Source of the DNA: Heterodontus francisci
Taxonomy: Eukaryota
Assembly: GCF_036365525.1 (NCBI RefSeq)
Contig: NC_090393.1
Span: 54,638,488 to 54,702,487 of the forward strand
Direction: 5' to 3'
DNA: 64,000 bases
Below the pieces are notes generated by a model that had not been told where the DNA came from, did no database searches, and worked only from the letters and a program-made list of their open reading frames with translations. A program made the position numbers and the translations under genes. Every line of letters starts with the position of its first letter. Position 1 is the first letter of the stretch. Below, one piece after another: positions 1-64,000 of this stretch.

Positions 1-1019
1 GTAGGGATGGAGCTGAACCATTTGTCAGTGTTTATGACAAGAATTCAAAGCACTTGGTGCAAGTGTTTCTAAATCATCTGGTTACACAAATTCAGGGCAA
101 ACCCTGGGACCGCCTCTCTTTTGGAGACCCCGCACCTAACGCGGTGCAATTTCTGACACTGCATTCTTTTTTCAAAATTATCCGATGACATTAATTGGTC
201 AATAATGGTTAGATTGAATCAGGCTCTTTTAGAAGCAAGTCAAACAGTCATAACTAGAGATTCCTTGAGGCTTTTGACCGAAACCAGCTCATATAACAGT
301 TGCGCTTTTTAAATTCAGCCTCACACAAATCACCAACTCGGTGCAGTATCCGTTTGGTCTTCTTTGTTCAGACTGATGTAGGTCTACGGTACATAAATCG
401 TTAAAAGTAGCATTATTAGTTGTTAAGGCCATAGCGAGTGAAAACAAAGTGCCAGCTAATTTCTATTGGAATAGAATACAACAGCAGGGGGGTTTATGTT
501 AGATTTATACAGAACTGTGCTCAGCATTGGACTCCATACTACAAATGATACTGAAGGACTTGAGAAAGTGCCGAACGTATCTGCAATGTTGTTACTCGAA
601 TTGGGATGATGCAACTATCAGGTAAATTAGCATGTTGGGCAATTTTCCCTTATTATGAGAGGACTGAGTATAATTTAAAGAGGGCTTTAAAATTATGAAG
701 TGCGACAGGATTGACGTGCAGAAACTGTTTCCACGGTGCGTTAGACCAGAACAGAGAGGCGTAAATATCAGATCTGCACGTACCGATTAAATCAATAGTT
801 TACTTGAAGATACGGATTGGTGCTTGATTGGGAGGTAGGAGAGGGAGAATAAGCTTTCGTGTTTCATTCTCTGATTGGTTGGACGTGACAAACGGAATTC
901 CGAAGGGATTAGTTCTTCCAGCACAGCTTTTCGCCATATATATTAATGAAGTCATACAGAGTCATACAAGTCATAAACAAGTTGCAAATCACACCAAATT
1001 CGGAGGTCGAGTAACTTTT

Positions 1020-2460
1020 GCCTCTCCTCAATGGAAAAAAAACCCTCTCAGAAATATTGAAGAACCAAGGGACTAGCAAAAATGAGGAACTGAAAGAAAT
1101 TAGTATTCGTAAAAAAGTAGTACCAGGGAATGATTAGGACTGAAAGTTGATAAATCCCCTGGAACTGATGTTTAACATGCCACACTGTTGAAAGTGTTGG
1201 CTGGAGAGACAGTGGATGCGTTGGTGATCATCTTCCAAAATTCTATAGATTCTGCAATTGTTCCTGCAGATTGAATGGTAGCAAATGTAACCCTACTAAT
1301 TAAGAAAGGAAGGAGAGAGCAAATGGGAACCACAGACCTGTTTTCCTGACAGTAGTAGGGAAAATGCTAGAATCTAATATAAAGAATGTTATAACCGGAC
1401 AGTTACAAAATAATAGTAGGATTGGGCAGGGTCAATAGGGATCTGTGAAAGAGAAATCATTTGACAAACAGTTTTTGAGGATGTTACCAGCAGAATAGAT
1501 AAGGCGAAGCCATGGATGTGGTGTGTTTGAATTTTCAGAAGACTTTTGATAAGGTCCCATTCAGGTTAGTCAGCAAAATTAGAACACATGGGATTGGGGG
1601 TAATAGACTGACATGGATTGAGAATTGGTTAATAGACAGAAAACAGAGAGTAGGAAAAAATGGTCATTCTCAGGTTAGTAGGCTTTGGATCACTGCTTGT
1701 GTGCCGGCTAATCACAATCTAAATCAATGAATTGCCGCCAAGTCTGCTGACGACACAAAATCAGGTGGGAATGTGATTTGTGAGGAGGATGCAAAGAGTC
1801 TTCAAGGGGATGCAAACAGGTTAAGTGAGTGGGCAAGAATATGATTGATGGAATATAATGTGGAAAAATATGAGGTTATCCACTTTGTTAGGAAAAAACA
1901 GAAATGCAGAGTATTTCTTAAATGGTGAGAGATTGCGAAGTGTTGATGTCCAAAGGGACCTGGGTGACTTTGTTCATAAGTCATTGAATGCTAACATGCA
2001 GGTGCAGCAAGCAATTAGGAAGCCAAATGGTATGTTAGCCTTTACTGCTAGAGAACTTGAGTACAGGAGTAAAGAAGTCTTGCTGCCATTGTGTAGAGTC
2101 CTGGTGAGACCGCACCTGGAGTATTGTGCGCAGTTTTGTTCTTCTTACCAAAGGAGAGTGTCATAGAGGGAGTGCAATGAAGGTTCACCAGACTGATACT
2201 CAGGATGGCGGGATTGTCCTATGAGGAGAGATTGAGGAGACTGGGCCTATATTCTCTGGAGTTTAGAAGAATGAGAGGCGATCTCATTGAAGCTTACAAA
2301 ATTCTTACAGGGCTCAACCAAGTTGATGCAGGAAGGATGTTCCCCTGGCTGGCTGGGGGTGGGAGGCGGATGGTGGAGGGGGTCGGTGGTGGTCTACAAC
2401 CAGGGGACACAGTCTCAGAATAAGAGGTAGGTCATTTAGGACAGAGCTAAGGAGGAATTT
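1020..2460 (+). mobile_element. Degenerate CR1-clade LINE (RT region). Paralogs at ~29030-30860 and ~57910-59580
   Basis: ORF fragments DVVCLNFQKTFDKVP, QRDLG, LVRPHLEYCAQF, LSYEERLRRLGLYSLEFRRMRGDLIE, with many stops. Confidence 0.9.
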
Positions 2461-2869
2461 ATAGAAACTGCAGGTAATCTCGCCATTAATCAATCTTAAC
2501 CAAGACAGCATTCCAATCAAACCCCTCAAACACAACAGGAAGGAGAGTACAAGGGCTCTTTAGAAAATTCAGGGCTCACTATTCATTTACATAGATGTTG
2601 ATCAAGCAAAATAGGTGCTTGGAATTTCCTTGGGATTTATCCCACAAGTGATCAGAGGAGATGCGAGAGAAACGGCGTAAACGGCGGCCTCAGCGCCGTA
2701 TGTATAAAACATAAACGTTTCCATTAATTCGGGCACTAGCAAAAAGTCAAGTCGGGAAAATTGGGAAAAAGAACGTGCGACAAACGGGACTTTCGGCTAG
2801 ACTCTGTCTGGACGGTGTTGTTCCATGTGAGCAGTCCTCTTCATATTGCGTTCCGAAAAAGTGCTTCTG

Positions 2870-3403
2870 TTGATCTGATCGGCTCCTTCGAAAAAGCTTC
2901 AAATCTCTTGTTCGGTATATCAGCAGAATGGCCTGAATAACGGCGAGGATGAAGAGACCGATCTGGCACATCAGGGTAAAGTTATAGTAGCAGTTCTAAC
3001 AGAGGGAGAAAACATCATCCTCCGCTAGAGAGAACATCCGTCTGGCTCTGCAGCTCCACCTTTGAGGAGCAGTTTATTGTTCTTATACTGAGATTGGTCT
3101 TTCTGTTTGAGAAACCAGGATCTCAGGTAGAAGTGTTACAATCACAACTCCCTTCATGACTGACCAATGACACTCAAGTATTGCAGAGGTTCAAACATTC
3201 CATTGAGAATTGCAGATCATTTGCTCTTGTTCACTTTGATCTTGGTGAGGGTGGCCGCAAAATGCTTTGGAATTGTGCTTACATTCATTCAGCTCTTGAC
3301 AGCTGCAGTCCGTAAACGTCCCGGAAAGGCGGCAAAATTACCGGAACTGGAAGACCGCCACAGGAACTAAGAAGTCTTCTTGCCATTTCACTACTGGCAT
3401 CGG
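2870..3403 (-). pseudogene. GP1BB: Platelet glycoprotein Ib beta-like (single LRR + TM) pseudogene, unit A
   Basis: Manual translation across frameshifts and stops: FCRLSGTFTDCSCQELN/VSTIPKHFAATLTKIKVNKSK*SAILNGMFEPLQYLSVI...SCDCNT/FYLRSWFLKQKDQSQYKN/INCSSKVELQS/RRMFSLAEDDVFSLC*NCYYNFTLMCQIGLFILAVIQAILLIYRTRDLKLFRR. This gives LRRNT, one LRR, LRRCT (CDC..YLRxW..C), the LAED(E/D) motif and a Gln-containing TM helix as in GPIb-beta. Acceptor-like ctaattttcgtccag lies directly upstream. Confidence 0.8.
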
Positions 3404-4209
3404 CTGGACGAAAATTAGTGGGTTAGCTCGGGAAAAAAAAGCATTTACAAGCAATTGGGTGTGAGAAGGAAAAACAAATACACTAAACGTTAAGGCTACA
3501 TGTGGAAACTACAGGGCCCGGTAAAATATAGCCCGAGATACTTGCAAAAGTAGAATTGAATGTTTATCTGAAAGTTATAATCAAACTAATGAGACGTGAT
3601 GTTCAAACACAATGTCAGGTACAGAACACTGCCATAAATGTTAGATTTACTGTTCATTCCTTATAGCAAAATTACACGAATGTTCCATTTCTGTATTTCA
3701 AGATAGCGCAAGGGACCAGAAGATTAAGTTCACATCAAAACAGCTTTAAGGCAAAATCATTAAATGCAAGCACTAGAATATACTCCGAATATCTCAAATC
3801 TTGAAGGATCGGCCCAAACAAAAATTATTTCATGGAATAATTTAAATAGAAAAAATTGCCCCAAGTAACGTATAACCACACTTACACTTCCCTGCGTTCC
3901 AGCCTGTGGTCCTCCATTCAAGACAACATCTGCGCAGCTTCAATCTGTTGAAACACATCCTAACCTGGACCTTAAATGGTCTTTTCCACTTTAAAATCCT
4001 TACTCTCTTTCATCCCGGCCAGTCCTCTGCATGACCATCATCTGCACTCCCTTAAGACGAAGGGAGGAAGACTTGGAAAATTTATGGTGGACAATTGGTT
4101 TAGCCATACATTGCCAGATTTCATTGGACCACAGAATGCACTATCGGGTCTTGCTATCATCAGTCAAAACTGTTCATTATTCCACGATCGACCAGAATAC
4201 ATAGACATG

Positions 4210-5337
4210 TCGCATGGGGTCCAGGGTGTACTAGCTAGATGGATAAAGAACTGGCTGGGCAACAGGAGACAGAGAGTAGCAGTGGAAGGGAGTTTCTCAA
4301 AATGGAGACGAGTGACCAGTGCTGTTCCACAGGGATCCGTGCTAGGACCACTGTTGTTTGTGATATACATAAATGATTTGGAGAAAAGTATAGGTGGTCT
4401 GATTAGCAAGTTTGCAGACGACACTAAGATTGGTGGAGTAGCAGATAGTGAAGGGGACTGTCAGAGAATACAGCAGAATATAGATAGATTGGAGAGTTGG
4501 GCAGAGAAATGGCAGATGGAGTTCAATCCGGGCAAATGCGAGGTGATGCATTTTGGAAGATCCAATTCAAGAGTGAACTATACAATAAATGGAAAAGTCC
4601 TGGGGAAAATTGATGTACAGAGAGATTTGGGTGTTCAGGTCCATTGTTCCCTGAAGGTGGCAACGCAGGTCAATACAGTGGTCAAGAAGGCATACGGCAT
4701 GCTTTCCTTCATCGGACACGGTATTGAGTGCAAGAGTTGGCAGGTCATGTTACAGTTGTATAAGACTTTGGTTCGGCCACATTTGGAATACTGTGTGCAG
4801 TTCTGGTCACCACATTACCAAAAGGATGTAGATGCTTTGGAGAGGGTGCAGAGGAGGTTCACCATGATGTTGCCTGGTATGGAGGGCGCTAGCTATGAAG
4901 AGAGGTTGAGTAGATTAGGATTATTTTCATTAGAAAGACGGAGGTTGAGGGGGGACCTGATTGAGGTGTACAAAATCATGAGAGGTATAGATAGGGTGGA
5001 TAGCAAGAAGCTTTTTCCCAGAGTGGGAGATTCAATTACTAGGGGTCACGAGTTCAAAGTGAGAGGGGAAAAGTTTAGGGGGGATATGCGTGGAAAGTTC
5101 TTTACACAGAGGGTGGTGGGTGCCTGGAACGCATTGCCAGCGGAGGTGGTAGATGCGGGCACGATAGCATCTTTTAAGATGTATCTAGACAGATACATCA
5201 ATGGGCAGGAAGCAAAGAGATACAGACCCTTAGAAAATAGGCGACAGGTATAGATAGAGGATCTGGATCGGCGCAGGCTTGGAGGGCCGAAGGGCCTGTT
5301 CCTGTGCTGTAATTTTCTTTGTTCTCTTTGTTCTTTA
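4210..5337 (+). mobile_element. Young 5'-truncated CR1 LINE (RT C-terminal half, 3' UTR and tail), unit A only
   Basis: Uninterrupted frame with VPQGSVLGPLLF, KFADDTK and LVRPHLEYCVQFWSP, ending at 5253. Tail ttgttctctttgttcttt. Confidence 0.93.
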
Positions 5338-5339
5338 TA

Positions 5340-6540
5340 ACCCCTAGCTTCTGTTCTCAAATACAATCCATATTTTAAACCCCTCTTCCCTGCAACCACC
5401 ACCCTCACCTCCAACAATAGGTCACTGACTTTGGACATCCTTGCTGCTTCTCTCCATTTCCTTGGCCGACTTGGGCCAAATCTCCCCTGAAGTCCCACCT
5501 GCCCTAGCTCTGAATTTGCATGTTAGTCTCCTATTCTGCTCCTGCCCTCTCCAAGTTCATCTTGTCCATGAAACCAACTGCTGTCCTGAAACTATTCAAA
5601 TTAAACTGCTGAGCACGCAGTCTACCTCATCACAAGTTCTCTTGTCCTCTCCACTGTTTCTACTTTGTTATATTGCTTGTCCGACATTCAGTACTAGATG
5701 AGCGATAATTTCCTCCAACTAAATATTGGAAAGAGGGAAGCCATTGTCTTCCATCCTCATCACAACCTCCAGTCCATCGCCACCAGCTCCTTCCCTGTCC
5801 CTGGCAACTGTCTGAGGCTGAACCAAACTGTTCGTAACCTTGGTGTTGTATTTGAGCCTTCCAGGTGCTTGTGAACACATAATCCACCACAAGACTGTCT
5901 AATCCCACCTCCATAACATTGCCCGACTTCACCCCTGCTTCAGCTCATCTGAAACTGAAACCCTTATCCATTCCTTTATTACCTCTACACATGACTATTC
6001 CTACGCTCATCTGGGCAGCTTGCCATCTACCACACTACCTAAGTTTGACCTCATCCAAAATTCTGGTGCCCATATGCTACCTCGCACCAATTCCTTTTCA
6101 TCAATCTCCCCTATGCTCACTGGCCTATATTCAACAATGCCTTCATTTTAAAACTTTCATTGTTGTTTACAAATTTCTCCATGGCCTTGTCCCTTGCCAG
6201 TTCGGTAACTTTCTGCAATCATACAACCCTCTGAAATTTCTGAGCGCCTCCCATTCTGGCCACTTACACTGACCCGATTTTAATTGCTCCATTATTGACA
6301 GCGGTGCCTTCAGGAGATGAGGTCTTAAGCTCTGGACTTCTCTCTCTAGGCAGCACTGCCTCTCTTCCTCGATCTCCTCATTGAAGGGGCACCTTAAAAC
6401 CTATCTCTTTGATCAATCTTTTGGTCCCTGTTCGAACATCTTCTTTTGTTGTTCTCCATCAAAGTTTCTTAGACTATGTTCATATGAAACAGTTTGGGAT
6501 GTTTTACTGCCCTAAAGTACTCTTAATGCAAGTGGTTGTT
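5340..6540 (+). mobile_element. Degenerate L2-clade LINE. Paralogs at ~33700-35530 and ~60230-61290
   Basis: The unit B copy shows FLDRSSAFGTVN, GVPQYS, degenerate YADD (MNSDNIQV) and LQLNIGKREAIVF. L2-type 3' end gcaagtggttgttg. Confidence 0.75.
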
Positions 6541-8365
6541 GTTTTCATAGTCAAGTCAAGTCAGTCATTCCGATTTCTGATACATTGCTTGTCTATTGAT
6601 AAATCTAGTTTGCAGCTCATCCCTGCTTTGCTAAATCAATGAATAGGAGTAAAATATTATCCAAATTGGAGTTCTGGCAGCTTTCCCTCTGGGAAATTGA
6701 TCTCTTGTGAAGCTCACTGGCTAAATATGTCTCACAATGAGCTGGATTTTACATACAGTTTGAAGGCGGGTTCTTTGGCGTGGTGGGCCGGAGAATCAGC
6801 ACAAATGCATCTACCAAGGAACCTGATGCCTCATGCCGGATTCTGATTTCCTCGGAGGCGCCGAAGTTCCATGGTGGCACTGCCACCGCTCTGTGATGGG
6901 ACCGTAATTTAAATATGTTAAATACAATTTGGCATTAATTATCATATAATTCACTGCAATCCTACCAGTTGTTCGCAATCTTCTGCATGTCATGTGACAC
7001 CCACGTGCCTTCACTTTCCTGTCTCTGAAAAGCTGGCAACACCGAGGTGAGAGACCTTGGTGCCTGCAAAGGTTTGGTAAATTATGCGTGGTTCTCCTGT
7101 TGAACTTGTTTTAACTTCGGACATTACCACTAAGGTCAATCTGCAGATGTGATGGAAGCTTGGAATTCTGCAAGTAGATACTGTTGAGGAGGGGGAAGGG
7201 GGGAACTCTGCAAGTGGATACTGTTTGCGGGGAAGTGGGGAACTTTGCAAGTGGATCCATTGTTTGGGAGAGAGCAGAACACAGAAACTGTATCGGTTGT
7301 TTTTAATGGGGGTCCAGTGCAGGCAACTCAAATGATATTCTGATGGTCATGATGGCTTGCACTTATTTAAAAGTTGTGAGGGCAGCATCAATCCATACCA
7401 TAGAGCTCACGCTGGAACACTATGAAACTAGAAATTAACACAAATCTCTTCCCAAATAGGCGTAGTTGAACTTTGGAAGCAATCTGAAGTTACAAGGAGG
7501 ATAGAGATGGGTATGATTCATCCTGTATTCCTGAATCCCCTTGCTGTGATGACATCACTACTGGAAGCCGTCCCAAGAGACAGGTGTGGCTCACGAGGAA
7601 GCTCCTAGACATGAGCAGCAGAAGCCACCAAGGCGAAGAGGAGCCCAGATATGCTGTGAGTCCAAAGCACTCGGATGACATACCTGCAAATGTCTGAGCA
7701 CCCATGCCAGAGACAACTGTGAATGTCGAGAAAGGCTGCCACACACCTCTGTGCACTGTCGAATGATGATTGGCAACCAATGGGCTTTGGTGGTCACCCT
7801 ATGGCCGTGGCTCTCAAAATTACTGTATCCCTGAACTCTTATGCCTCTGGATGATTCCAGTGGTCCACCGATGACATGTGGGGGGGTCTCTCAATCCACA
7901 GTGCACCGCTGCATCAAGGAGGTGACTGATGCTCTGTTCAGGAGGGATGTCGACTATGTCTGTGACAGGAGAGGCCCAGAGAGTCAGGCCAAGAGCCCCA
8001 TTGGATTTGGGGCCATTGTAGGATTCGCACAGAGCCAAGGTATGATCGACTGCACACATCTGGCTATCAATGCTCCCATGGACTGATCAGCCACCTTCAT
8101 AAACATAAAAGAGGTTCATTCAATCCATGTCCAACTAGTGTGTGACCACAGAAAGTGCTTTTTACAAGTGTGTGCCTGTTTCCCAGGCAGCTGCCATGAC
8201 TTATACATAATTTGTCAGTCCCAGGTGTCAATACATTTCACTGCTCCCGGTCACCTTCACGGGTGGATTCTTGAGGATATGGTTTTTGACACCAGTGAGG
8301 TACTCCACCGTTGATGCTGAAGAGTGTTACAATGAATGCCAAGGCTCCACCCGAGTGATCATTGC

Positions 8366-11300
8366 TGTCATGGTCCTGTAGTTTTTTTGGGGGGAATATG
8401 CAGTTTGCTTTAAGGCTTGTAAAGGATCAGTATTGCTTTAAGAACCAGCAAACCTCAGGAGTTATTGGCAGGTGCATTTCCGTGACCTTAGAAACAGCCA
8501 TTTGGAGACTATGATTCAAAGGGTGCATTCTCATTATCATAGATACAGCCATTGAGAGTGAGTATGAAGTGATACACTTGTTACAATTCAATTTTGAACT
8601 GACTTTTTAGTTGAAGACAGATTGGTCCAGCAGAACACACACACACAGAGGACACACACAGACAGACAGCTGTGGTGTTTAGCCCTTGAAAAAGGCTCTT
8701 AATCATTTAAACTGAAGGAATAGGATTTTAGACTGTTAATTATTATCTCTCAAAATTCTAAAGAAGTCAAACCAAAACCGAGATCTCTGGTAATTTAAAC
8801 TGAAAGGAAGGAAGTTAGACTGTGACAATCTTTTATCCCTCAAAAAACTCTTATGTCAGATTGATTCTATTGAAAGTGTTCGCAAGTTGTGAATTGTTGA
8901 AATCCATCTCGGAAGAAGGAAAGCATCACCTGCTGCTGGAGTTAGACTACAGTCACTTCTACTGTGCAAGAACTTTTTTTCACATTGAACAGCTGTGAGG
9001 ACTTCAAGCAACATTGGACTGTAAATTTGCAAGGACACTATTTTTTTCTATTTTAAATGTTGTTTATATCTTCATAGTGTTTAAGAATTTAGTTCTTCTA
9101 ATTAAAGAGTTAATTTATTGATTTCAAGACACCTGGTTTGGTTAACCTCATTCAGGCGGTTAAAAGATGGTACAATTTGGTTGGTTCTTTCATTAATTTG
9201 GAAAGTTTTAAATGATATGTTAGGCCATCTGTGGAACGACGGGATTGAACTAACAGTGCAATTTTCCTACCACAATCAGAATCATATATTTTGATTGGGG
9301 GCTTTGACTGGAGTGGTCAGTCATAAGATATTTATTGGGGACTCCTCTGTGGTTTGAATAACATATTAATTGGGGGGTCACTCAAGATTTGAATAACATA
9401 TTAATTGGGGGCTCACAAGATTTGATTCACATATTAATTGTGTTTCTCATGATTTGAATCATATCTTTATTGGGGGCTCACTTGCAGTTGAATCTTATTT
9501 AATTCGGTGGCTCATGTCTGGGATCAGAGTCAGACAAATTTGGAGGGTGGGCATTTTAAATTACTCATCTCTGGGATAACATATTTAAATTGGGGTCTTG
9601 CATTTGGCATCAGGTTAATTGCTCTCGATTCCGGGATTTTATCAATTGGAAACTTGATTGTTGGAATCTAAATCTGACACCAAGTACAAAGAAATTAAAA
9701 GAACCAGGTCTCCTGAATAATAAGGTACAATCTATACCATTGTTATGGCATTAGTGGTTGCACAGAGATTTTGAGAAAGCAGAATGTTTCCCTGAGTGAC
9801 TTGATAACTTTAACTAAGAACAAATTCAAAGAATTGGCAGCGAAATTGGGGTTGAAATTGAAATCAGGTGCCAAAAAAGCAGAGATAATTGACATAATAG
9901 CCGAACATCTGGAATTAGGAGAAGATGATGATGATAATACAGATGTAGGGCAATACGAGGAACAAGAAGGTAGTAAGTCCGAGAGTGATGCAATGGTATT
10001 GGCTAGGCTTCAGTGAGAAACAAAAAAAACTTGAGGCAGAAAAAGAATTAAGAAATCTTGAACTGGAAAAAGAGGAAAGGGAAAAAGAAAAAGCAAGAGC
10101 ATGAAGAAAACTTGAACTTCAGAGAGAGAGTGAAAGAGAAGACAGGGAATTTAAATTAAAAGAAATGGAACTATGACAAAATAGTAGTCTTGAATCCAGG
10201 GAAATTTCGGGTCAGGAAGAATCTGAGTTTAGATCAGGACCCAGTGAGCAGTTGTTCAAATTTATATAGGCTCTTCCTAAGTTCGAGGAAAGGGATGTAG
10301 AGGCATTTTTCATATCTTCTGAAAAAATAGCCAAACAGATGAAATGACCGGAAGAAAGCTGGATATTGCTCATACACGCAGGCTGGTAGGCAGAGCTCAT
10401 GAAGCTTATGCCATGCTTTCTGAAGAGGCTTCTGCAGATTATGAGATGGCAAAAAAGGTTATTCTCGCTGCGTATGAGTTAGTCCCTGAAGCTTACCATC
10501 AGAGGTTTAGGAACTTACAGAGATTGACTAGGCAGAAATATTTCGAATTTGAGAGGGTGAAGCAAATGAATTTTGACCATTGTATATGGGCATTCAAGAT
10601 AGAAACCACATATGAGAACCTTCGAGAACTGATTCTCTTAGAAGAGTTTAAAAACTCCATTCCTCCGGTAGTGAGAACTCATATAGATAACCTGAAAGTT
10701 TTGAAAGCTAGGCAAGCAGCAGAGATTGCTGATGATTCAGAGCTTGTGAATAAGCCAACCTATTTTGTCCGTCAACCCCATAAACCCGAGAAGGATAGAA
10801 AGTGGAAGAGTGAAAGGAAGGCAAGAAGCCGGGGAGAAGAAGGAACAGCTGGGAATGCCCCAGCATCACCTCCTCAGGTCAGAAAGGATCGTGCTGGGGT
10901 AGAAGTGAGGTTCACAACCCAAGGTGTTATCATTGCAACAACAGGGGTCATCTTCGTTCAGACTACTGGAAATTGTGAGGAACTTGTTGGGGTACGCAAA
11001 GTTAGTGCAGAGGAAAAGACTCCCTGACTGAGAGTATAGAAGTCCAGGCTATAGCTTTAATGACAGCTGTGAATGTGAAGTCAGATACTAAAACTAAGAG
11101 GAGTGTAGAGGTTAAGCATAAAATACCTGAGAGTTATAATGATTTTATGACAAAGGGGAGAGTAACTCTGTATCCTGTAAGTGAGGCAGGAAATACTATC
11201 ATTAAACTCAGGGATACAGGAGCGACCCAAACACTCTTGCTGGGGAAATATATGAGGTTTTCACCAGAGAGCATCTTGAATGCTAAAGTTTTAGTAAATG

Positions 11301-52029: not shown

Positions 52030-52095
<66 letters not shown>
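52030..52095 (+). repeat. (TATC)n microsatellite upstream of gene 2; shorter (GATC)n(TATC)n version at 22670-22708
   Basis: About 16 tetranucleotide repeats are directly visible. Confidence 0.95.
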
Positions 52096-52506: not shown

Positions 52507-52582
52507 AGAGGTTTAGAAAGAGCACAGAACCACATTCGTGTCAGGAACTATTCTCCATCAGACCCTCACCAGAACCTTCACC

Positions 52583-55500
52583 ATGACTGAATGGGTTCAG
52601 GTTCTTGCCGCACTGATGCTCTGTCTCCACAGTAAGTACAGGCGTTAACCTTCATTATCGCTGCTGTTTGCATTGCTCGGAATTTTTTTTTTGTGCTTGT
52701 GTTTAACAGACCTGAATTAGCAACAATATTCACAATTGCAGAGTTTGACTCATCAATAATTTGTCATTTCACCAGGTACAAACGCGGATCCTGTCCTGAC
52801 TCAGCCAGGATCCATCTCAACCACACCGGGGAGCACCGTCAAGATCACCTGCACCATGTCCGGAGGCAGCATCGGCAGCTACTACACGAGCTGGTACTGG
52901 CAGAAACCCAGCAGTGCCCCTGTGTTGGTTTGGAGCGAGTACAGCGGTAAAGCTTCGGGGATTCCAGATCGATTTACCGGGTCTGTGGAGTCATCGAGTA
53001 ACAAGTTGCTTTTAACCATCACCAAGGTGCAGTCGGAGGACGCCGCGGATTATTACTGTGCTGCCCTGCTTGGCAGTACAGCTGCATTTATTTTCGGGAG
53101 AGGAACCAAGCTGAACCTGGACAGTAAGTAAATTATTTCTACTGAGCTTTAACATTTTCAGCGTTAACATCGGAATATCAAAAATCACTTTAAAATCACT
53201 GGCTTGGTGGATTGGATGAGAGCAAATCAGGACTATTTCTCTTATAACATATGTATACAGAGCTTGTGAATCAGCGTCCGGAGACATTTAAAAGATCGGC
53301 ATAACTGCGCCCGATTTTACGCAGGGTTTTCAGGTTGTAAGAGAGGACAGAGGCAATTTTTAAAGATGATACCAGTGCTGCAAGGTTTTAGTTACAAGAG
53401 AACGAGAGTGAAGCTCGGTCTACTGCAAGTTTACGGGATGATCTGCTTGAAATGAGCATAGTTCTGAGCAAAATGAAAACAGATATTTTCACTGATCGGT
53501 CAGTCGGTAACCTGAGGACATCAATTGAATGTCATTGGTAGAAGGGCGAAGGGACTGGATAGGATATTTTCTTTACCCAGTGGAGTGTTAGGACTGCAGT
53601 GTCCTATCTCAAAGAATAGGGCGAGCAGAATCAGACTATCGTTTAAAAAGAAAGTGGATAAAACTTTGACAAAGGAAAAACAAATGGATGGGAAAAGGAC
53701 TAAGTGGGCGCCTTTCAAAGGCGATTGGCCTGTTTCTGGCCATGATTCCTGAATCCCACAGGGTCTTTGAGATCGGAATACCGCGGCCCTTTACGACACA
53801 AAAGGCATAAACACAAATTCAAAACTTTCATTCTACTGAGAGTAGTACCGGAATTTAATCATCATTCTTGGATTGAGACTGCGGAAGGATAGTGTGGCGA
53901 CTTGCTGTAAGTCACTCTCACTCGTCTCCAAACTCAGTGAAAACCGCTCAGTACATGATTCTCAGTCCGACATTTCGCATTAATCCCCGCTGACTATAGT
54001 AATCACACTGTTGAGCTAAGTTCAGCTGGTGGTAACCATCCACACTGATCGATTTTCTCCATTCCGCAATAACAAACACCAATAATTGACATGATGCCTA
54101 TTTTCTTAACAAGTCAGGGGCTCATTATCTTCCCGCCCAATCTATTGTGTAGCAATGTCTCGGAATCGGTATCAGATTCTTCCTGCTGCTCTTGTGCTCT
54201 CAATTGCGCTTTGCTGCATGTTCTGTGGTTAGTGTGAGAGGAGTAATATGGAAAATGCACATACTCTATCGCTATTTTGACTTGGTTATTCGGTGGCATC
54301 ACAGTAAAATGGGCTAAAATGAGATATGAAACAGAACATGCGACAGAATATTTTCAATTATTCCTTTTCAAAACGATCGCTGCTACTAACTTTATCGTTC
54401 GTTGTTTACTTGCTTGCTCTCGCCATAATCCTAAAGGTCCAGAGGCATCTCTCCCCATTAGAGAGGCAGTTGGTGATACATAGTTTGAGGATCACCACTC
54501 CTCAAGTTTGGGACAAGCCTCCATGAGCTAACACAGCCGTTAAATGGATTGAGCCCACGCTGTTGGCGTCTTTCTGTCTCATATTCTAGCCGTCCACCCA
54601 GCTGACGCTCAGTTCTCTGCAAAACTCTTGTATTTAGACAATAATATAAACTGATGGTAAAACCTGTGCAATAATCCCACGAGATTTCAGATATTTCAGT
54701 ACCTGAATTTTCAGCTAAACTCTGGGTGAGGCCTGGAGATTATACAAACTCTGACAACAGGGGTTGGAGGCACTTGTCAGACTAATCGCAGTTTCAGTCT
54801 CCAAATTAATAACGTCAGGAAAGTGAGGCGAAGTTGTCGGTTCCAAGGCGAAACTCTTAGAATGGCAATAGATTTTTAAACCGTCACGGGTACATCTAGT
54901 GCTGGTGAGACGCGCCGATGTAGCTGACATCACACCTCAACATCAGAACCAATTGTAGAGGCTCGGCCTCTCATTTTAGTATTGAAAAAAGTAGTGTTTC
55001 AACCCTTTCTTCATTTCTTCACATTACATAAACCATTTTACTGAGGTTTGTCATTGGCAGCTGGTGCTTGTAATACATGGTGCGAAGGATTATTTAAAAG
55101 ATATGAGATTCTGAGAGTTCGGCTTTAATCTTCTTACACTTGGTAATATTTCGTTGTTGCTATCATGGGAATATTTCGATTGAAGAATAAGTAAAAAAAA
55201 GAACGAGCTTGCATTGTTATGCCGCCTTCCACGACCTCAGGACATCTGAGCGCGCTTCATAGCGAATTTCGTGCTTTTTAAAGGACAGTCACCCTTTGTA
55301 ATGTATGAAACTCGGCAGCTTATTTGCGCAAAGTCCCACAAACATCACAGGACAGATAATCTGTTTTAACGATGTTAGTTGAGGGATGAATATAAACCAG
55401 GTCAGGTTGGCTTTATTACTTGCAGATTGAGGTTATATTATTAGACAATATAGATATAATAGTTCACAATAACAGATGTTATTTAGAGGAAACAGTTTCC

Positions 55501-56444
55501 GTTTAGTGAAAACGTATGAATTGTGACACTGACCCCAAAGAAGTCCCCAAATAGCGTAATTAGAATGTGATAGAACAGTCTTCTGAGGTTTTAGGCAAAA
55601 GAGTCGGACGAGCGGGAAACCTTGTGGCAGCGAGAAAGGAGCAAAGCGACAGAAATCCAAATATTAGTCCAAGATTCACTTCCGTCAAAGCAAGTGCAAA
55701 TTCGAAATTATTTAATAGTTGGTTTAACAATTTGGCCTTAAACGTTTGGCCTTAAATATTGAACAATCTTTGCTGTCAGCATTGCCGTCAATATTCTCTA
55801 ATATGCCCTAATTCTGATTTATTGATTATTACGATTCTTTTTCATCTTTATCTTATTGTCTGAGCGCAATATTTTGCTTAGATTCAAATTTCTCTTAAGA
55901 ATTTGTATGCGTTTCTTGCCTGAAGGAAAAGTAGGAATCTTTTCTCAGGTTATTCCCCGGGACTGTTGGCCCCAGCTTTTGGACTCTAACGGGATTCCGT
56001 TCTATTAAACTCATTATAGCTATTTAATGTAATTTTAAAAGTTTTCAAAAATGTCAAACATTGATTCCGACTTTTATGTGGATGAAAAATGGATCTACTT
56101 AAATTTGTTTCTGATTTTCAGATCCACGGGTCCCCTCGGTTTCGGTCCTTCCGCCTTCATCAGATCAAATCGCAGCAAAGAACACGGCGACCCTGGTGTG
56201 TTTGGTGAGCGGTTTTAACCCGGGAGCTGTGGAGATTGAGTGGACTGTAGATGACAGTGTGAGAGGGAATGGTGTTGAGACCAGTCGGATCCAGCAGGAG
56301 ACGGACAACACGTTCAGTGTGAGCAGTTATCTGACTCTGCCAGCCTCAGAGTGGAACTCACACGAGCTTTACTCCTGTGTGGTTAAACACGAGACACAGG
56401 CAAATCCGCTTAAAACAAGTATCTCGAGGTCCAGTTGTATCTGA
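52583..56444 (+). CDS. IGL: Immunoglobulin light chain, shark type II/lambda, germline-joined VJ, gene 2. Exons 52583-52631, 52776-53123, 56122-56444; 239 aa
   Basis: Same exon sizes (49/348/323 nt) and GT-AG sites as gene 1. V-J reads ...DAADYYCAALLGSTAAFIFGRGTKLNLD. C differs from gene 1 by one residue (TDST vs TDNT). No stops or frameshifts. Confidence 0.96.
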
Positions 56445-56657
56445 TTCAAAATCTTATGTATTGATTTGTTATTCCAAAAGCAAAGTTTCTTTACAAATAT
56501 ATTCCGCAAACGGCCATTACATGCTTGCTTTTAAGTGGAACATTTCAAATCAGAACAGTGGTGCAGTTTATCCGGTGGATTCCGCTGTCTGTTTTTTACA
56601 GTGTGTTCACCCTGAACTGATCAAAGTTTCAGTGTAACCTTACAAACATCACAGTTT

Positions 56658-56663
56658 AATAAA
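56658..56663 (+). terminator. Polyadenylation signal, IgL gene 2
   Basis: AATAAA plus downstream GT-rich element at the homologous position. Confidence 0.8.
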
Positions 56664-56892
56664 ACGACTATTCCGCTATCTCGTGTGTTGTTATTTTTCT
56701 GTGCCGTTGGGTCTGAAACAATTGTTAGCAACTTCCTACATGTGATGAAATAGCGGTTTTATTTTTGCAACATTCTGCACATTTTGTGTAAAGCCTTTGA
56801 CATCAGTCAAAATAATCAGATTATGTACACGAAGACGTGGAAGTAATCTGGCAACATATTTTCAAAGATAGACCTGGCTGAATTTCGTTCGT

Positions 56893-59800
56893 GTCGGGAT
56901 GGAGCTGAACCATTTGTCAGTGTTTCTGACACGAATTCAAAGCACTTGGTGCAAGTGTTTCTAAATCATCTGGTTACACAAATTCAGGGCAAACCCCGTG
57001 ACCGCCTCTCTTTTGGAGACCCCGCACTTAACGCGCGGTGCAATTCCTGACACTGCATTCTTTTTTCAAAATTATCCGATGACTTTAAGTGGTCAATAAT
57101 GGTTAGATTGAATCAGGTTATTTTAGAAGCAAGTCATAACTAGAGATTCCTTGAGGCCTTTGACCGAAACCAGCTCATATAACAGTCGCGCTTTTTAAAT
57201 TCAGCCTCACACAAATCACCAACTCGGTGCAGTATCCCTTTAGTATCAAGCCTTCTTTGTTCAGACTGATGTAGGTCTACGGTACATAAATCGTTAAAAG
57301 TAGCATTATTAGTTGTTAAGGCCATAGCGAGTGAAAACAAAGTGCCAGCTAATTTCTATTGGAATAGAATACAACAGCAGGGGGGTTTATGTTAGATTTA
57401 TACAGAACTGTGCTCTGCATTGGACTCCATACTACAAATGATACTGAAGGACTTGAGAAAGTGCCGAACGTATCTGCAATGTTGTTACTCGAATTGGGAT
57501 GATGCAACTATCAGGTAAATTAGCATGTTGGGCAATTTTCCCTTATTAAGAGAAGACTGGGTATAATTTATGGAGGGCTTTAAAATTATGAAGTGCGACA
57601 GGATAGACGTGCAGAAACTGTTTCCACGGTGCGTTGGACCAGAACAGAGAGGCGTAAATATCAGATCTCCACGCACCGATGACATCAATAGTTTACTTGA
57701 AGATACGGATTGGTGCTTGATTGGGAGTTAGGAGAGGGAGAATAAGCTTTCGTGTTTCATTCTCTGATTGGTTTCTACGTGACAAACGGAATTCCGAAGG
57801 GATTAGTTCTTCCAGCCCAGCTTTTCGCCATATATATTAATGAAGTCATACAGATTTATATAAACAAGTTGCAGATCACACCAAATTCGGAGGTCGAGTA
57901 ACTTTTGCCTCTCCTCAATGGAAAAAAAACCCTCTCAGAAATATTAAAGAACCAAGGGACTAGCAAAAATGAGGAACTGAAATAAATTAGTATTCGTAAA
58001 AATGTAGTACTGGGGAATGAATAGGACTGAAAGTTGATAAATCCCCTGGAACTGATGTTTAACATGCCACACTGTTGAAAGTGTTGGCTGGAGAGACAGT
58101 GGATGCGTTGGTGATCATCTTCCAAAATTCTATAGATTCTGCAATTGTTCCTGCTGATTGAATGGTAGCAAATGTAACCCCACTAATTAAGAAAGGAGGG
58201 AGAGAGCAAACGGGAACCACAGACCTGTTTTCCTGACAGTAGGAGGGAAAATGCTAGAATCTAATATAAAGAATGTTATAACCGGACAGTTACAAAATAA
58301 TGGTAGGATTGGGCAGGGTCAATAGGGATCTGTGAAAGAGAAATCATGTGACAAACCTATTAGTTTTTGAGGATGTATCCAGCAGAATAGATAAGGTGGA
58401 GCCGTGGATGTGGTGTGTTTGAATTTACAGAAAGCTTTTGATAAAGTCCCATGCAGGCTGGTCAACAAAATTAGAACACATGGGATTGGGGGTAATATAC
58501 TGGCGTGGATTGAGAATTGGTTAATGGACAGAAAACAGAGAGTAGGAAAAAACTGGTCATTCTCAGGTTAGCAGGCTTTGGATCACTGCTTGTGTACCAG
58601 CTAATCACAATCTAAATCAATGATTTGGATGTGGGGGCTGAATGCAAGTTTGCTGATGACACAAAACCAGGTGGGCATGTGATTTGTGAGGAGGATGCAA
58701 AGAGTCTTCAAGGGATGCAAATTGCTTAAGTGAGTAGGCAAGGATATGGTTGATGGAATATAATGTGGGAAAATATGAGGTTATCCACTTTGTTAGGAAA
58801 AAACAGAAACGCAGAGTATTTCTTAAATGGTGAGAGATTGCGAAGTGTTGATGTCAAAAGGCAACTGAGTGTCTTTGTTCATAAGTCATTGAATGCTAAC
58901 ATGCAGGTGCAGCAAGCAATTAGGAAGCCAAATGGTATGTTAGCCTTTATTGCAAGAGAATTTGAGTTTCGGAGTAAAGATGTCTTGCTGCAATTGTGTC
59001 GAGTCCTGGTGAGACCGCACCTGGAGTATTGTGCGCAGTTTTGTTCATCTTACCAAAGGAGAGTGTCATAGAGGGAGTGCAATGAAGGTTCACCAGACTG
59101 ATACCCGGGATGGCGGGATTGTCCTACGAGGAGAGATTGAGGAGACTGGGCCTATATTCTCTAGAGTTTAGAATAATGAGAGGCGATCTCATTGAAGCTT
59201 CCAAAATTCTTACAGGGCTCGACCAAGTTGATGCAGGAAGGACGTTCCCCTGGCTGGCGGGGGGTGGGAGGGGAATGGTGGAGGGGGTCGGCGGTGGTCT
59301 ACAACCAGGGGACACAGTCTCAGAATAAGTGGTAGGTCATTTAGGACAGAGCTAAGGAGGAATTTCTTCACTCAGAGAGTGGTAAATGTGTGGAATTCAC
59401 TGGCCCAGAACTGCTGTGGAGGCTTGGTCATGAGTATCTTCTAGACAGTGATAGATTTCTAGACATTAACAATATCAAGGGATATGGGAATAGTGCAGCA
59501 AAATGGCATTGTGGTCGAAGATCAGCCATGATCTAGAATAGTGGCAGACCTACTCCTGCTCCTATGTCCTTTGTTCCTAAGGTCGAAATTGAATGCTGAC
59601 AAGCTCAGAAGGCTGAATTGACCGGTTGCTATGCCCTAGATTCTTCGCAGTTACAAATAGTGAGAAATTATTAAAATAACATGATCGAGTCACAGATTAA
59701 TATCGACCTGATTTCAAATATGTTGCTAACACACAGCGTGAAAGTTGTTTTCAGTCAGCATACCTGTTTGTGCACATTGTTTCATGTCTACTGCTAAGAT

Positions 59801-62800
59801 AAACCGCTAGTGCGTGCATTAGATATTATCATTCACGTAGCTGCCGCCCAACCCCCACCTGCAGTAGGATACCAAACAATTTGATAGGGCCTTGGTGAGC
59901 CCATACTTGTACTGTGAGTAGTTTTGATATCCTTACCTGAGGAGGGATATACTTGCCTTTGAGACATTGCAACACATGTTCAATAGACTGGTTCTTGGGA
60001 TGAAGGGAATTGAGTAAACTATGCTTATATTCCCTAGAGATGAGCAAAATGAGAGGTGAACTCAGTGAAACGCATATCATTTTAAGGGGCTTGACAGGAT
60101 AGATATTGGGAGGTTTTTTCACCTGGCTGGTGAGTCTCGAACTAGGAGACACAGTCCCAAAATAAGAGGCAGCTATTTTGGACTGAGATGAAGAGCAATT
60201 TCTTCACTCAATCTTCAGAATTCTGTACCTGCAATAGCTCTCTTCTCACTCCCATGCATTACGTCTGGCGTACCCCAATGCTCTATCCTTGCCTCCCTCC
60301 TATTTCTCATCTATATACTGCCTGTTGGGGACTTCATCTGGAAATACCATGTCAGGCGCCACATGAACTCTGATAACATCCAGGTCTGCGTCATCACAAG
60401 CTCTCATGTCCTCTCCACTGTTTCTACTTTGTTATATGGCTTGTCCGACATTCAGTACCAGATGAGCGATAATTTCCTCCAACTAAATATTGGAAAGAGG
60501 GAAGCCATTGTCTTCCATCCTCATCACAAATTCCAGTCCATCGCCACCAACTCCTTACCTGTCCCTGGCAACTGTCTGAGGCTGAACAAAACTGTTCGTA
60601 ACCTTGTTGTTGTATTTGAGCCTTCCAGGTGCTTATGAACACATAATCCATCACAAGACTGTCTAATCCCACCTCCATAACATTGCCTGACTTCACCCCT
60701 GCTTCAGATCATCTGAAACTGAAACCCTTATCCGTTCCTTGATTACCTCCAGACATGACAATTCCTATTCTCATCTGGTCAGCTTTCCATCTACCACACT
60801 ACCTAAGCTTGACCTCATCCAAAATTCTGGTGCCCATATGCTACCTCGCACCAATTCCTTTTCACCAATCTCCCCTTTGCTCATTGGCCTACATTCAACA
60901 ATGCCTTCATTTTAAAACTTTCATTGTTGCTTACAAATTTCTCCATGGCCTTGTCTCTTGCTAGTTCTGTAACTTTCTGCAATCATACAACCCTCTGATA
61001 TTTCTGAGCGCCTCCCATTCTGCCCACTTACATTGACACGATTTTAAATGCTCCATTATTGACAGCGGTGCCTTCAGGAGATGAGGTCCTAAGCTCTGGA
61101 CTTCTCTCTCTTGCAGCACTGCCGCTCTTCCTCTATCTCTTCCTTGAAGGGGCACCTTAAAACCTATCTCTTTGACCTGTTCTAACATCTTCTTTTGTGG
61201 TTTGCCATTAAATTTTGTTAGACTATGTTCATATAAAGCAGCTGGGATGATTCACTGCCTTAAAGTACTCGAGAAATGCAAGTGGTTGTTGTTTTAATAG
61301 TAAAGTCAAGTCAGTCATTGCGACTTCTGATACATTGCTTGTCTATCGATAAATCTAGTTTGCCGCTCATCCCTGCTTTGCTAAATCAATGAATAGGAGG
61401 AAAGTATTATCCAAATGGGAGTTATGGCAGCTTTACCTTTGGGAAATCGATCTCTTGTGAAGCTCACTGGCTAAATATGTCACACAGTGAGCTGGATTTT
61501 ACATTCAGTTTGAAGGCGGGTTCTTTGGCGTGGTTGGCCGGAGAATCAACGCAGATTCAGCTACCAAGGAACCTGATGCCTAATGCCAGATTCTGATTTC
61601 CTAGGAGGCGCCGAAATTCCATGGTGGCACTGCCGCCGCTCTGTGATGAGACTGTAATTTAAATATGTTAAATACAATTTTGCATTAATTATCATTAAAT
61701 TCACTGCAATCCTAACAGCTGTTTGCAATCTTCTGCATGACAGGTGGCACCCACGTGCTTTCACTTTCCTCTCTTGAAAAGCTGGCAACACCGAAGTGTG
61801 AGTCCTTGGTGCTTGCAAAGGTTTGGTAAATTATGCGTTGTTCGCCTGTTGAACTTGTTTTAGCTTCGGACATTACCACTAAGGTCAAGCTGCAAATATA
61901 ATTGACATAATAGCCGAACAGCTGTAATTAGTAGAAAATGATGATGATAAAACAGATGTAGGGCAATATGATGAACAACAAGGTAGGAGGTCCGAGAGTG
62001 ATGCAGTGATATCGGCTAAGATTCAGTTAGAAACAAAAAAAACTTGAGGCAGAAAAAGTATTAAGAAATCTTGAATTGGAAAAAGAGGAAAGGGAAAAAG
62101 ATAAAAACAATAGCATTAAGAAAACTTGAACTTCAGAGAGAGAGAGAGTGAAAGAGAAGACAGGCAATTTAAATTAAAAGAAATGGAACTATGACAAAAG
62201 AGTAGTCTTGAATCCAGGGAAAATTCAGGTCAGGAAGAGTCTGAGTTTAGATCAGGACTCAGTGAGAAGTTGTTCAGGTTTATATAGGCTCTTCCTAAGT
62301 TCGAGGAAAGGGATGTAGAGGCATTTTTCATATCTTTTGAAAAAATAGCTAAACAGATGAAATGACCGAAAGAAAGCTGGACATTGCTCATGCACGCAGG
62401 CTGGTAGGTAGAGCTCATGAAGCTTATGCCATGCTTTCTGAAGAGGCTTCTGCAGATTATTAAATGGCAAAAAAGGCTATTCTCACTGCGTATGGGTTAG
62501 TCCCTGAAGCTTACTGTCAGAAGTTTAGGAACTTACAGAGAATGACTAGGCAGACATATTAAGAATTTGAGAGGGTGAAGCAAATTAATTTTGACCGTTA
62601 GATATGGGCATTCAAGATAGAAACCACATATGAGGACCTTCGAGAATTGATTCTCTTAGAAGTGTTTAAAAACTCCATTCCTTCAGTAGTGAGAACTCAT
62701 ATAGATAACCTGAAACTTTTGAAAGCTAGGCAAGCAGCAGAGATTGCTGATGATTCTGAGCTTGTGAATAAGCCAACCTATTTTGTCCGTCACCACCATA

Positions 62801-64000
62801 AACCCGAGAAGGATAGAAAGTGGAAGAGTAAAAGGAAGGCAAGTAGCCGGGCACAAGAAGGAACAGCTGAGAATGCCCCAGCATCACCTTCTCAGGTCAG
62901 AAAGGAACGTGCTGGTGTAGAAGTGAGGTTCACAACTCAAGATGTTATCATTGCAACAACAGGGGTCATCTTCATTCAGAGAGCTGGAAATTGCGAGGTA
63001 AACGCATAGGACTTGTTGGGGTAAGCAAAGTTAGTGCAGAGGAAAGACTCCCTGACTGAGAGTACAGAAGACCAGGCTATAGCTTTAACGACAGCTGTGA
63101 ATGTGAAGCCAGAACTAAAACTAAGAGGATTGTAGAGGTTAAGAATAAAATAGCTGAGAGTTGTAATGATTTTTTGACAAAGGGGGAGTAACTCTGTATC
63201 CTGTAAGTGAGGCAGGAAATCCTCAGGGATACAGGAGCGACCCAAACACTCTTGCTGGAGAAAGATATGAAGTTTTCACCAGACAGCATCTTGAATGCTG
63301 AGGTTTTAGTAAATGCAATTGGCGGGGTGTGTATACCCATACCTTTGCATAGAGAGTGACTTAATAACTGGGATAGTAACAGTAGGTGTTGTTCAGAGTT
63401 TACTAGTAAAGGGAATTGATCGACTCCTAGGAAATGATTTGGCTGGATCAAAAATATCAGTTTTTCCTATAGTTACAGAGGAACCATGTGAAGTTAAGGA
63501 AATGGAGCAATTACAGGAGCACATTCCAGGAATATTTCCTGCGTTACGAGCAATGGCTAAACAGGATCCATTGTTGGAGTTAAAAGGGACACCACAAATA
63601 GATAATCAGGCATCTGAAACCTTATTTGGGGATTTAGATAATCCAAATCAGATGTTTAACAGATTGTCTATCATTGCAGCACAGCAAGCTGATCCAGAGA
63701 TCTACCAAATAGTATAGACAGCTCTGTCAGAAGCCGAGGTGAAAGGAGTTCTGGAAGGCTATTATATGGCAAATTGGGTTTTGTGGAGGAAATGGAGACC
63801 GCCTCACAGACATGCTGACAAAGACTGGACAGTTGTTGAACAGATAATGTACCACCTAATGTACCAATCGCCAAGGATTATTAAGGTTAGCACACGACAT
63901 TCCCTTTTCAGGACATAGGGGAATTCAGAAGAACAAATCATACATAAGCAAACATTATTACTGGCCAGGTCTTACAAAGGTGTCAGACAATTTTGTAGAA
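56893..64000 (+). repeat. Tandem segmental duplication, unit C (partial)
   Basis: Matches the starts of A and B. The window end (ctggccaggtcttacaaaggtgtcagacaatttt) corresponds to ~11990 in A and ~38248 in B. Confidence 0.95.
61895..64000 (+). mobile_element. Unit C copy of the Gmr1-like Gypsy element (5' LTR deleted, runs off the window)
   Basis: Gag, PR and INT remnants homologous to 9885-11990. Confidence 0.87.

What the first reader, a model, noticed from the sequence alone, without database searches (positions are those of the whole stretch)
1..64000. Head-to-tail array of ~28-29 kb cassettes, each carrying one ready-made (germline-joined) lambda light-chain gene
Seen: three colinear unit starts (1, 28094, 56893) and two intact L-VJ-C genes in the same orientation, with no RSS or V-J intervening DNA. 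Known: shark Ig genes are organised as multiple clusters and type II/lambda clusters are germline-joined. Inferred: these genes were amplified by tandem duplication of one pre-joined gene, since CDR3 length and J are the same. This makes an innate-style multigene antibody array that needs no RAG for assembly. The window starts ~450 bp after where another C-exon stop should lie and ends mid-unit, so at least four genes are predicted.
Basis: partly seen in the sequence, partly recalled or inferred. Interest (0 to 1): 0.75.

Follow-up and report, generated by a model that had tools for sequence, protein, structure and literature searches.

The report
Tandem pre-joined shark antibody light-chain genes
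This is a tandem run of ready-assembled lambda antibody light-chain genes in a horn shark, a gene class known for decades, whose copies appear to have traded their main antigen-contact loop with one another.

Summary
Observation confirmed. Three colinear units (offsets 28,093 and 28,799 bp; about 95% identical where aligned) carry two intact, same-strand leader-VJ-C genes with octamer promoters, GT-AG introns and no RSS at V or J. Both match RefSeq Heterodontus francisci lambda light chains exactly in V-J and C. Public runs show both predicted splice joints at family level. Three mutually diverged copies with private transposon insertions argue against mis-stacked haplotypes. Nine H. francisci lambda proteins share one 83.7-Mb record length, which supports a larger array. 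All chondrichthyan lambda (type II) genes are reported germline-joined and clustered, so the class is already known. 'One joined ancestor' holds for this subfamily only, since the species' lambda CDR3s are 5, 9 and 11 residues long in old V lineages. 'RAG-free, innate antibody' overstates: the heavy chain normally still needs RAG, and shark V regions hypermutate. One addition: the copies are mosaics. Genes A and B differ by 2.5% overall but at 7 of 33 CDR3 bases, and two CDR3 types occur on both of two V-body types among paralogs. That points to germline gene conversion reshuffling CDR3.

The parts
1..28093 (+). Repeat unit 1 (phase arbitrary): 3' flank of an unseen upstream gene, transposon-rich spacer, gene A
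28094..56892 (+). Repeat unit 2: 3' flank of gene A, spacer, gene B
56893..64000 (+). Repeat unit 3 (partial): 3' flank of gene B and start of the spacer
23322..23335 (+). Gene A promoter octamer, here two overlapping octamers in opposite orientation
23453..23501 (+). Gene A leader exon
23647..23994 (+). Gene A germline-joined V-J exon; V-J and C are contained exactly in P0100 (XP_067911702.1)
23931..23963 (+). Gene A CDR3 (11 codons), 'R-type', one residue from paralog P0099
27322..27644 (+). Gene A C-lambda exon including stop; poly(A) signal at 27859
52452..52459 (+). Gene B promoter octamer (single perfect copy)
52583..52631 (+). Gene B leader exon; splice joint 52631>52776 seen in runs X5 and X6
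52776..53123 (+). Gene B germline-joined V-J exon; V-J and C are contained exactly in P0006 (XP_067911420.1)
53060..53092 (+). Gene B CDR3 (11 codons), 'L-type', same peptide as paralog P0098
56122..56444 (+). Gene B C-lambda exon including stop; splice joint 53123>56122 seen in X5, X6, X7; poly(A) signal at 56658
23500..29413 (+). Tract of raised A/B identity (about 97-98% against 91-96% in the spacer) extending about 1.8 kb past the C stop: inferred conversion or recent crossover tract; left edge approximate
22758..23027 (.). SINE-like insertion private to unit 1, just upstream of the gene A promoter region, with an apparent 4-bp target duplication
26299..26628 (+). SINE-like insertion private to gene A's J-C intron, A-rich tail, apparent 4-bp target duplication; a further copy at about 44633-44955 on the minus strand
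39499..46459 (.). Largest unit-2-specific block: LINE with RT and GDSL-esterase-like ORFs, plus other repeat fragments
13469..17969 (.). Largest unit-1-specific block (repeat fragments; not classified in detail)
9879..12908 (+). Decayed SCAN-domain element (likely an LTR retrotransposon remnant) shared by all three units, so it predates the duplications; copies at 36135-39151 and 61892-64000
   Evidence: class assignment from my own knowledge

Best explanation
The window is part of the horn shark Ig lambda (type II) light-chain locus. Each 28-29-kb unit holds one complete mini-cluster whose V and J were joined in the germline long ago. SHOWN: intact gene anatomy, absence of RSS, exact match to annotated lambda proteins, family-level splicing of both introns. 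INFERRED FROM KNOWN BIOLOGY: the octamer promoter drives B-cell transcription without RAG action at this locus; the chain pairs with a heavy chain that is usually RAG-assembled; somatic hypermutation supplies most light-chain diversity. INFERRED FROM SEQUENCE: the array grew by unequal crossing-over of whole units, units then gained private retroelements and deletions, and ectopic recombination or gene conversion kept homogenising C exons and gene flanks while moving CDR3 between V bodies.
For: Gene models and motifs. V-J and C of A and B are contained exactly in RefSeq H. francisci lambda-like proteins P0100 and P0006. Named sandbar shark lambda chains are 74-79% (V) and 86-90% (C) identical. 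GT..AG joints at the exact predicted sites: 7 and 11 contigs for intron 1 (X5, X6); 17, 20 and 3 contigs for intron 2 (X5, X6, X7); 0 in DNA run X1. Three copies differ pairwise by 6.7-7.3% at 5620-7145 and carry private insertions. Recombination: three-way private-substitution counts vary along the unit (chi2 34.1, df 8, p 4e-5; 34/10/8 at 1-1400 vs 46/47/55 at 5620-7145). 24 of 55 informative residue pairs among 6 close paralogs fail the four-gamete test; 15 of the 24 pair V-body residues 22, 33, 100 with CDR3 residues 114-121, while pairs among 22, 33, 100 and pairs within CDR3 are compatible. The C tree groups 8 of 9 H. francisci rows (SH-aLRT 95), whereas the V tree scatters them into cross-species clades (species changes 28 vs 44). 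Literature: PMC5192425 and PMC4279169 (passages) state all lambda genes are germline-joined and in clusters.
Against: Flanks and long reads could not be examined, so tandem contiguity rests on the assembly. All four runs laid come from one sample, are short contigs laid at 85% likeness, and cannot assign joints to gene A or B or phase CDR2 with CDR3. The four-gamete result uses proteins only, and all six come from what is probably one assembly. An equally dense 7-in-33 cluster of differences lies upstream of the promoter, and the scan-wide permutation p for a cluster of 7 is only 72 of 5,000. The trees are quick trees on 93 and 107 columns with about half the forks open. No kappa or sigma sequences were in the trees.
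Confidence: 0.9

Rival explanations
1. The units are haplotypes or assembly duplicates stacked in tandem (false duplication).
For: Units are highly similar around the genes (97-98%). No long reads were available, and no listed contig spans even one gene.
Against: Three distinct versions of the same segment occur (5,957 three-way columns), more than a diploid offers for one locus. Spacer divergence is 4-7% with multi-kb private insertions, far above usual vertebrate heterozygosity (my own knowledge). Nine different lambda proteins share the same record length.
Confidence: 0.04
2. The array is real, but CDR3 divergence between A and B comes from point mutation under positive selection only, with no exchange between copies.
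For: All 7 CDR3 differences lie in 5 codons that all change the residue, whereas 8 of the 11 other changed codons in the CDS are silent. Replacement bias in CDRs was reported for germline-joined skate light chains (PMC2192082, abstract). CDR2 and CDR3 are the most variable regions among paralogs (0.63 and 0.45 vs 0.01-0.09).
Against: It needs the same five CDR3 residues to arise twice (B and P0098), or three V-body residues to arise twice. It does not explain the topology shift in non-coding DNA or the V/C tree discordance. Selection and conversion are compatible; only 'no exchange' is disfavoured.
Confidence: 0.15
3. Each gene arose by an independent germline RAG joining event in a duplicated split cluster, as shown for nurse shark kappa (NS4).
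For: Differences concentrate at the junction (7 of 33 bases). Repeated germline joining is documented for NS4 (PMC2193156, passages). CDR3 length classes of 5, 9 and 11 residues in the species could reflect several ancient joins.
Against: A and B have identical junction length and differ only by substitutions. No split lambda gene is reported in any chondrichthyan studied (PMC5192425, passage). No RSS or orphan V/J lies in the window.
Confidence: 0.04
4. The mosaic genes are assembly chimeras of neighbouring paralogs rather than biological recombinants.
For: Near-identical 28-kb repeats are hard to assemble. All genomic paralogs compared probably come from one assembly (same record length).
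Against: The V/C discordance also appears in other species' records (7 of 8 Heptranchias C rows group at SH-aLRT 98). A gene-B-type CDR3 is found letter for letter in run X7 (71 nt, 0 differences), though not phased with CDR2.
Confidence: 0.08

Closest known systems
Chondrichthyan Ig lambda light chain (horned shark type II, nurse shark NS3, sandbar shark lambda)
   Same: Same isotype and, by exact protein match, the annotated H. francisci genes XP_067911702.1 and XP_067911420.1. One V-J-C per cluster, germline-joined, several clusters (PMC5192425, PMC4279169, PMC5985310 Table 2; passages).
   Different: Nothing in kind. I found no description of the 28-29-kb head-to-tail unit structure or of CDR3/V-body mosaicism in the papers that searches returned, but the primary lambda papers were not held.
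Skate (Raja erinacea) type I / sigma-2 light chains
   Same: Multigene family of wholly germline-joined clusters (at least 89), expressed, potentially somatically mutated, with replacement changes concentrated in CDRs (PMC2192082, abstract only).
   Different: Different isotype. Sigma-2 CDR2 is 7 residues (PMC5985310, passage); here it is 3 by my IMGT-style count.
Nurse shark NS4 (kappa) germline-joined genes
   Same: In-frame joined VJ with octamer promoter, expressed (PMC2193156, passages).
   Different: A minority among split genes, from at least five independent joins. Here no split relative is seen, and A and B share one junction.
Chicken Ig diversification by gene conversion from germline-joined pseudogenes
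   Same: Templated exchange of V-region patches between paralogs (PMC2193156, passage on chicken).
   Different: Somatic, directional and using pseudogene donors in chicken. Here the inferred exchange is in the germline, between intact genes, over evolutionary time.

Membership tests
Chondrichthyan Ig lambda (type II/NS3) | Leader, one V-set domain, J motif, one C1-set domain ending in the interchain cysteine | tested here: met
Chondrichthyan Ig lambda (type II/NS3) | Closest sequence relatives are named shark lambda chains | tested here: met
   Exact containment in P0100 and P0006; sandbar shark lambda 74-79% V and 86-90% C; no kappa-named hit among the 96 V hits or the 120 C hits listed of 132. 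RefSeq '-like' names are automatic; GenBank names (P0101, P0010, P0022, P0031) agree.
Chondrichthyan Ig lambda (type II/NS3) | Groups with lambda rather than kappa, sigma or sigma-2 in a tree holding all four isotypes | not tested
   Trees held lambda-like rows only; no kappa or sigma sequence was fetched.
Chondrichthyan Ig lambda (type II/NS3) | CDR1/CDR2 lengths in the lambda range (3-9 / 3-7), unlike sigma (CDR2 9-10) and sigma-2 (8/7) | tested here: met
   8 and 3 by my IMGT-style count; ranges from PMC5985310 (passage). Lengths alone do not exclude kappa.
Chondrichthyan Ig lambda (type II/NS3) | V and J joined in genomic DNA, no flanking RSS | tested here: met
   a DNA-run contig of a diverged paralog also runs across V-J into the intron (X1 record 2)
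Chondrichthyan Ig lambda (type II/NS3) | Multiple one-V-J-C clusters | tested here: met
   Two in the window; 9 distinct proteins with the same record length
Chondrichthyan Ig lambda (type II/NS3) | Octamer promoter and spliced transcript | tested here: met
   Octamer; GT..AG joints in X5, X6, X7 and not in X1. Family-level, one sample.
Chondrichthyan Ig lambda (type II/NS3) | Somatic hypermutation in B cells | tested here: inconclusive
   4,460 and 5,224 contigs of X5 and X6 were laid, with depth concentrated on the exons and many at 90-99% identity. Paralogs, alleles, errors and hypermutation are not separated.
Chondrichthyan Ig lambda (type II/NS3) | Pairs with an Ig heavy chain in serum or on B cells | not testable with these tools
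   Needs protein or single-cell data
Fully RAG-independent ('innate') antibody such as IgM1gj with a joined L chain | Partner heavy chain also germline-joined and expressed | not testable with these tools
   No IgH in the window. Expression of joined H genes was not detected in horned shark (PMC2193156, passage); the IgM1gj partner is sigma-2 (PMC4279169, passage).

The most novel reading that the evidence does not exclude
Because these cassettes cannot rearrange, the tandem array regains combinatorial diversity in the germline: short ectopic conversion events swap the CDR3 block between near-identical neighbouring cassettes at the FR3/CDR3 border, where RAG would otherwise join V to J, while longer tracts homogenise C exons and flanks. 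Selection then keeps new CDR1/2-CDR3 combinations. The array would be an evolutionary-time substitute for V-J combinatorics, possibly helped by germline AID-type lesions (two of the CDR3 differences are tandem two-base substitutions, the pattern reported for shark hypermutation).
Probability: 0.35. Interest if true: 0.55.

Novelty: already known. Interest (0 to 1): 0.25.

Why it matters
The class is textbook shark immunology and both genes are already annotated, so the finding as stated adds mainly the physical layout: 28-29-kb head-to-tail units. The layout has two uses. First, several intact, octamer-driven, in-frame light-chain genes side by side with distinguishing CDR3s make light-chain exclusion without rearrangement testable by single-cell sequencing. 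Second, the mosaic paralogs suggest how a non-rearranging antibody family renews its antigen-contact loops, which bears on how much diversity can be kept without RAG.

Tried and rejected
No whole genome is held, so the flanking dot-plot could not be run. The run search listed no holder on record as RNA; this is not evidence either way, and X5-X7 are tool-guessed RNA. RSS scan: 6 stringent hits, rejected as repeats of three chance sites with 13- or 24-bp spacers away from V and J. tblastn for extra V, J or C remnants: none beyond the two genes. Rfam at gathering score: 0 matches. TRF: 8 short arrays, none related to the units. PDB search returned antibody chains only, uninformative beyond light-chain identity. 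AID-hotspot check: 6 of 13 A/B differences in the V exon fall on a hotspot C/G in either gene, against 16% of positions in gene A alone; too few sites and not a like-for-like baseline, so not used as evidence. A micro-inversion origin of the CDR3 differences was considered by eye and rejected because the reversed loop does not match. CDR3 length classes as clean ancient clades: not supported, 23 changes on the V tree. The first tree script failed on a mis-parsed row. The final trees used 74 hand-picked rows of about 199 proteins held. Four rows without a parsable J motif (P0150, P0041, P0072, P0172), the mis-parsed P0071 and many near-duplicates were left out. Earlier findings of this scan: none returned. 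Papers not held: the sandbar shark lambda genomic clone, the shark IgL exclusion paper and the four-isotype paper; PMC2192082 was abstract only with no supplements. These unseen texts may already report cluster spacing or conversion.
Full report
Observation. Self-comparison shows three colinear plus-strand units, with base 1 matching 28094 and 56893. Units 1 and 2 align over 18,050 of 28,093 bases at 94.9% counting substitutions only. Sixteen blocks totalling 19,944 bp have no colinear partner, and several contain reverse-transcriptase or esterase ORFs. The unit 'starts' are only the phase set by the window edge. Two genes are intact: A (23453-27644) and B (52583-56444). Each has a 49-nt leader exon, a 348-nt V-J exon and a 323-nt C exon, giving 239 residues in frame, with GT-AG introns, an octamer 131 bp upstream and a poly(A) signal about 215 bp downstream. 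Pfam confirms V-set and C1-set domains. V continues into J without a break. The six stringent RSS-like hits (0-3 in 20 shuffles) are three sequences repeated with the units, with 13- or 24-bp spacers and away from V and J. No further Ig exon lies in the window. The flanks themselves could not be read.

Identity. The V-J and C of gene A are contained exactly in P0100 (XP_067911702.1) and those of gene B in P0006 (XP_067911420.1), both RefSeq 'immunoglobulin lambda-1 light chain-like' of Heterodontus francisci. GenBank-named sandbar shark lambda chains are 74-79% identical in V and 86-90% in C. Nine distinct H. francisci lambda-like proteins carry the same longest-contig length, 83,741,193 bases. 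I infer one chromosome and a larger locus; their positions were not shown. Horned shark type II equals lambda (PMC5985310, Table 2 passage). Two reviews state that all lambda genes are germline-joined and lie in one-V-J-C clusters in all cartilaginous fish studied (PMC5192425; PMC4279169; passages only).

Expression. Of 17 runs listed, four were laid on gene B at 85% likeness. The leader intron joint 52631>52776 (GT..AG) is in 7 contigs of X5 and 11 of X6. The J-C joint 53123>56122 (GT..AG) is in 17, 20 and 3 contigs of X5, X6 and X7. DNA run X1 shows neither. One X7 contig matches gene B across CDR3 with 0 differences in 71 nt. Another has 7 differences over 53036-53108, the number by which A differs from B there, but its letters were not shown. 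All four runs are one sample, are contigs, and take in paralogs, so this shows spliced expression of the family, not of each gene. The thousands of contigs laid from X5 and X6 fit hypermutation but do not prove it.

Real array or artefact. A diploid locus has two haplotypes, but three versions of the same segment are present (5,957 three-way columns) and differ pairwise by 6.7-7.3% at 5620-7145. Unit 1 has two private SINE-like insertions with apparent 4-bp target duplications. A decayed SCAN-domain element is shared by all three units and so predates the duplications. False duplication is unlikely, though only long reads can close the point.

The copies are mosaics. A and B differ at 152 of 6,033 aligned bases (2.5%) from promoter to 3' flank, but at 7 of 33 CDR3 bases; CDR1 and CDR2 peptides are identical. 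For CDR3 chosen in advance the binomial p is 1.5e-5. Scanning the whole region gives 72 of 5,000 permutations with a cluster as dense, and a second such cluster lies upstream of the promoter. Among six close genomic paralogs, B's CDR3 peptide is identical to that of P0098 and A's is one residue from P0099, yet A and B share a V body that P0098 and P0099 do not. 24 of 55 informative residue pairs fail the four-gamete test. Fifteen of them pair residues 22, 33 and 100 with CDR3 residues 114-121; pairs among 22, 33 and 100, and pairs within CDR3, are compatible. In non-coding DNA the three-unit topology shifts: private substitutions are 34/10/8 at 1-1400 but 46/47/55 at 5620-7145 (p 7e-5; all five segments p 4e-5). 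The 3' flanks of A and B were therefore homogenised more recently than the spacers. Across species, on 74 hand-picked rows, the C tree puts 8 of 9 H. francisci rows together (SH-aLRT 95), while the V tree places P0144 and P0047 in cross-species clades (97 each); species labels need 28 changes on C and 44 on V. These are quick trees on about 100 columns with many open forks.

How it most likely works. Shown: anatomy, absence of RSS, identity, family-level splicing. Inferred from established biology: the octamer promoter allows B-cell transcription with no rearrangement at this locus; the chain pairs with a heavy chain that is normally RAG-assembled (PMC2435157, passages); somatic hypermutation, including tandem substitutions, diversifies V regions (PMC4279169, passage). 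Inferred from sequence: unequal crossing-over multiplied whole units, retroelements and deletions individualised them, and gene conversion homogenised C and flanks while moving CDR3 between V bodies, probably with positive selection on CDR2 and CDR3 (mean pairwise difference 0.63 and 0.45 against 0.01-0.09 elsewhere).

One joined ancestor is right for A and B, but H. francisci lambda CDR3s are 5, 9 and 11 residues long and the V lineages are old. Whether these reflect several ancient joins or later indels is open. 'No RAG needed' is true of the light chain only; expression of germline-joined heavy chains was not detected in horned shark (PMC2193156, passage).

Novelty. The system is already known and the genes are annotated. 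Seven literature searches returned no description of the unit spacing or of CDR3 mosaicism in lambda clusters; I judged most hits from the listing only. Three primary papers were not held, and PMC2192082 was abstract only, so this is weak evidence of absence. One review mentions 'some evidence' of gene conversion in cartilaginous fish V regions, and C-domain conversion within species is reported for UrIg2 (PMC12227049, passage). The VGP preprint did not distinguish fish light-chain types (PMC13320880, passages). Interest 0.25. The germline CDR3-shuffling reading has about 0.35 probability and would deserve about 0.55.

Noticed in passing
window 23322-23335 vs 52452-52465: Gene A has two overlapping perfect octamers in opposite orientation; one base change leaves gene B with a single perfect octamer. 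The promoter region differs by 5.9% against 2.5% for the gene overall, which could give unequal expression.
   Followed up: no
window 23937-23941 vs 53066-53070: Two of the CDR3 differences are adjacent two-base substitutions, the pattern reported for shark somatic hypermutation, here seen between germline paralogs.
   Followed up: partly
proteins P0035, P0031, P0032, P0039, P0068, P0080, P0145, P0184, P0192: A lambda form with a very short CDR3 (5 residues) occurs in chimaera, sharks and rays, but these rows do not form one clade on the V tree.
   Followed up: partly
window 8867-9329, 12037-12493, 38295-38751: A 460-bp direct repeat (87%) flanks the decayed SCAN-domain element in unit 1, like a pair of LTRs. 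Units 2 and 3 both lack 7146-9878, including the 5' copy: a shared deletion.
   Followed up: partly
window 46770-47953: Unit-2-specific insertion with a 251-codon minus-strand ORF resembling the C-terminal part of an RTE-type LINE (class from my own knowledge).
   Followed up: no
window 519, 28613, 57412 (minus strand): An RSS-like site with a 13-bp spacer is kept in all three units about 970 bp after the C stop; another with a 24-bp spacer lies in both J-C introns (24910, 54041). Treated as chance.
   Followed up: partly
window 54414-54564 and 55320-55470: Two short high-copy repeats in the J-C intron draw many contigs in DNA run X1.
   Followed up: no
proteins P0107, P0111: Annotated 551-556-residue products with two VJ-C units in Chiloscyllium and Rhinoraja, probably fused gene models of adjacent lambda clusters, which suggests tandem layout in other species too.
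   Followed up: no
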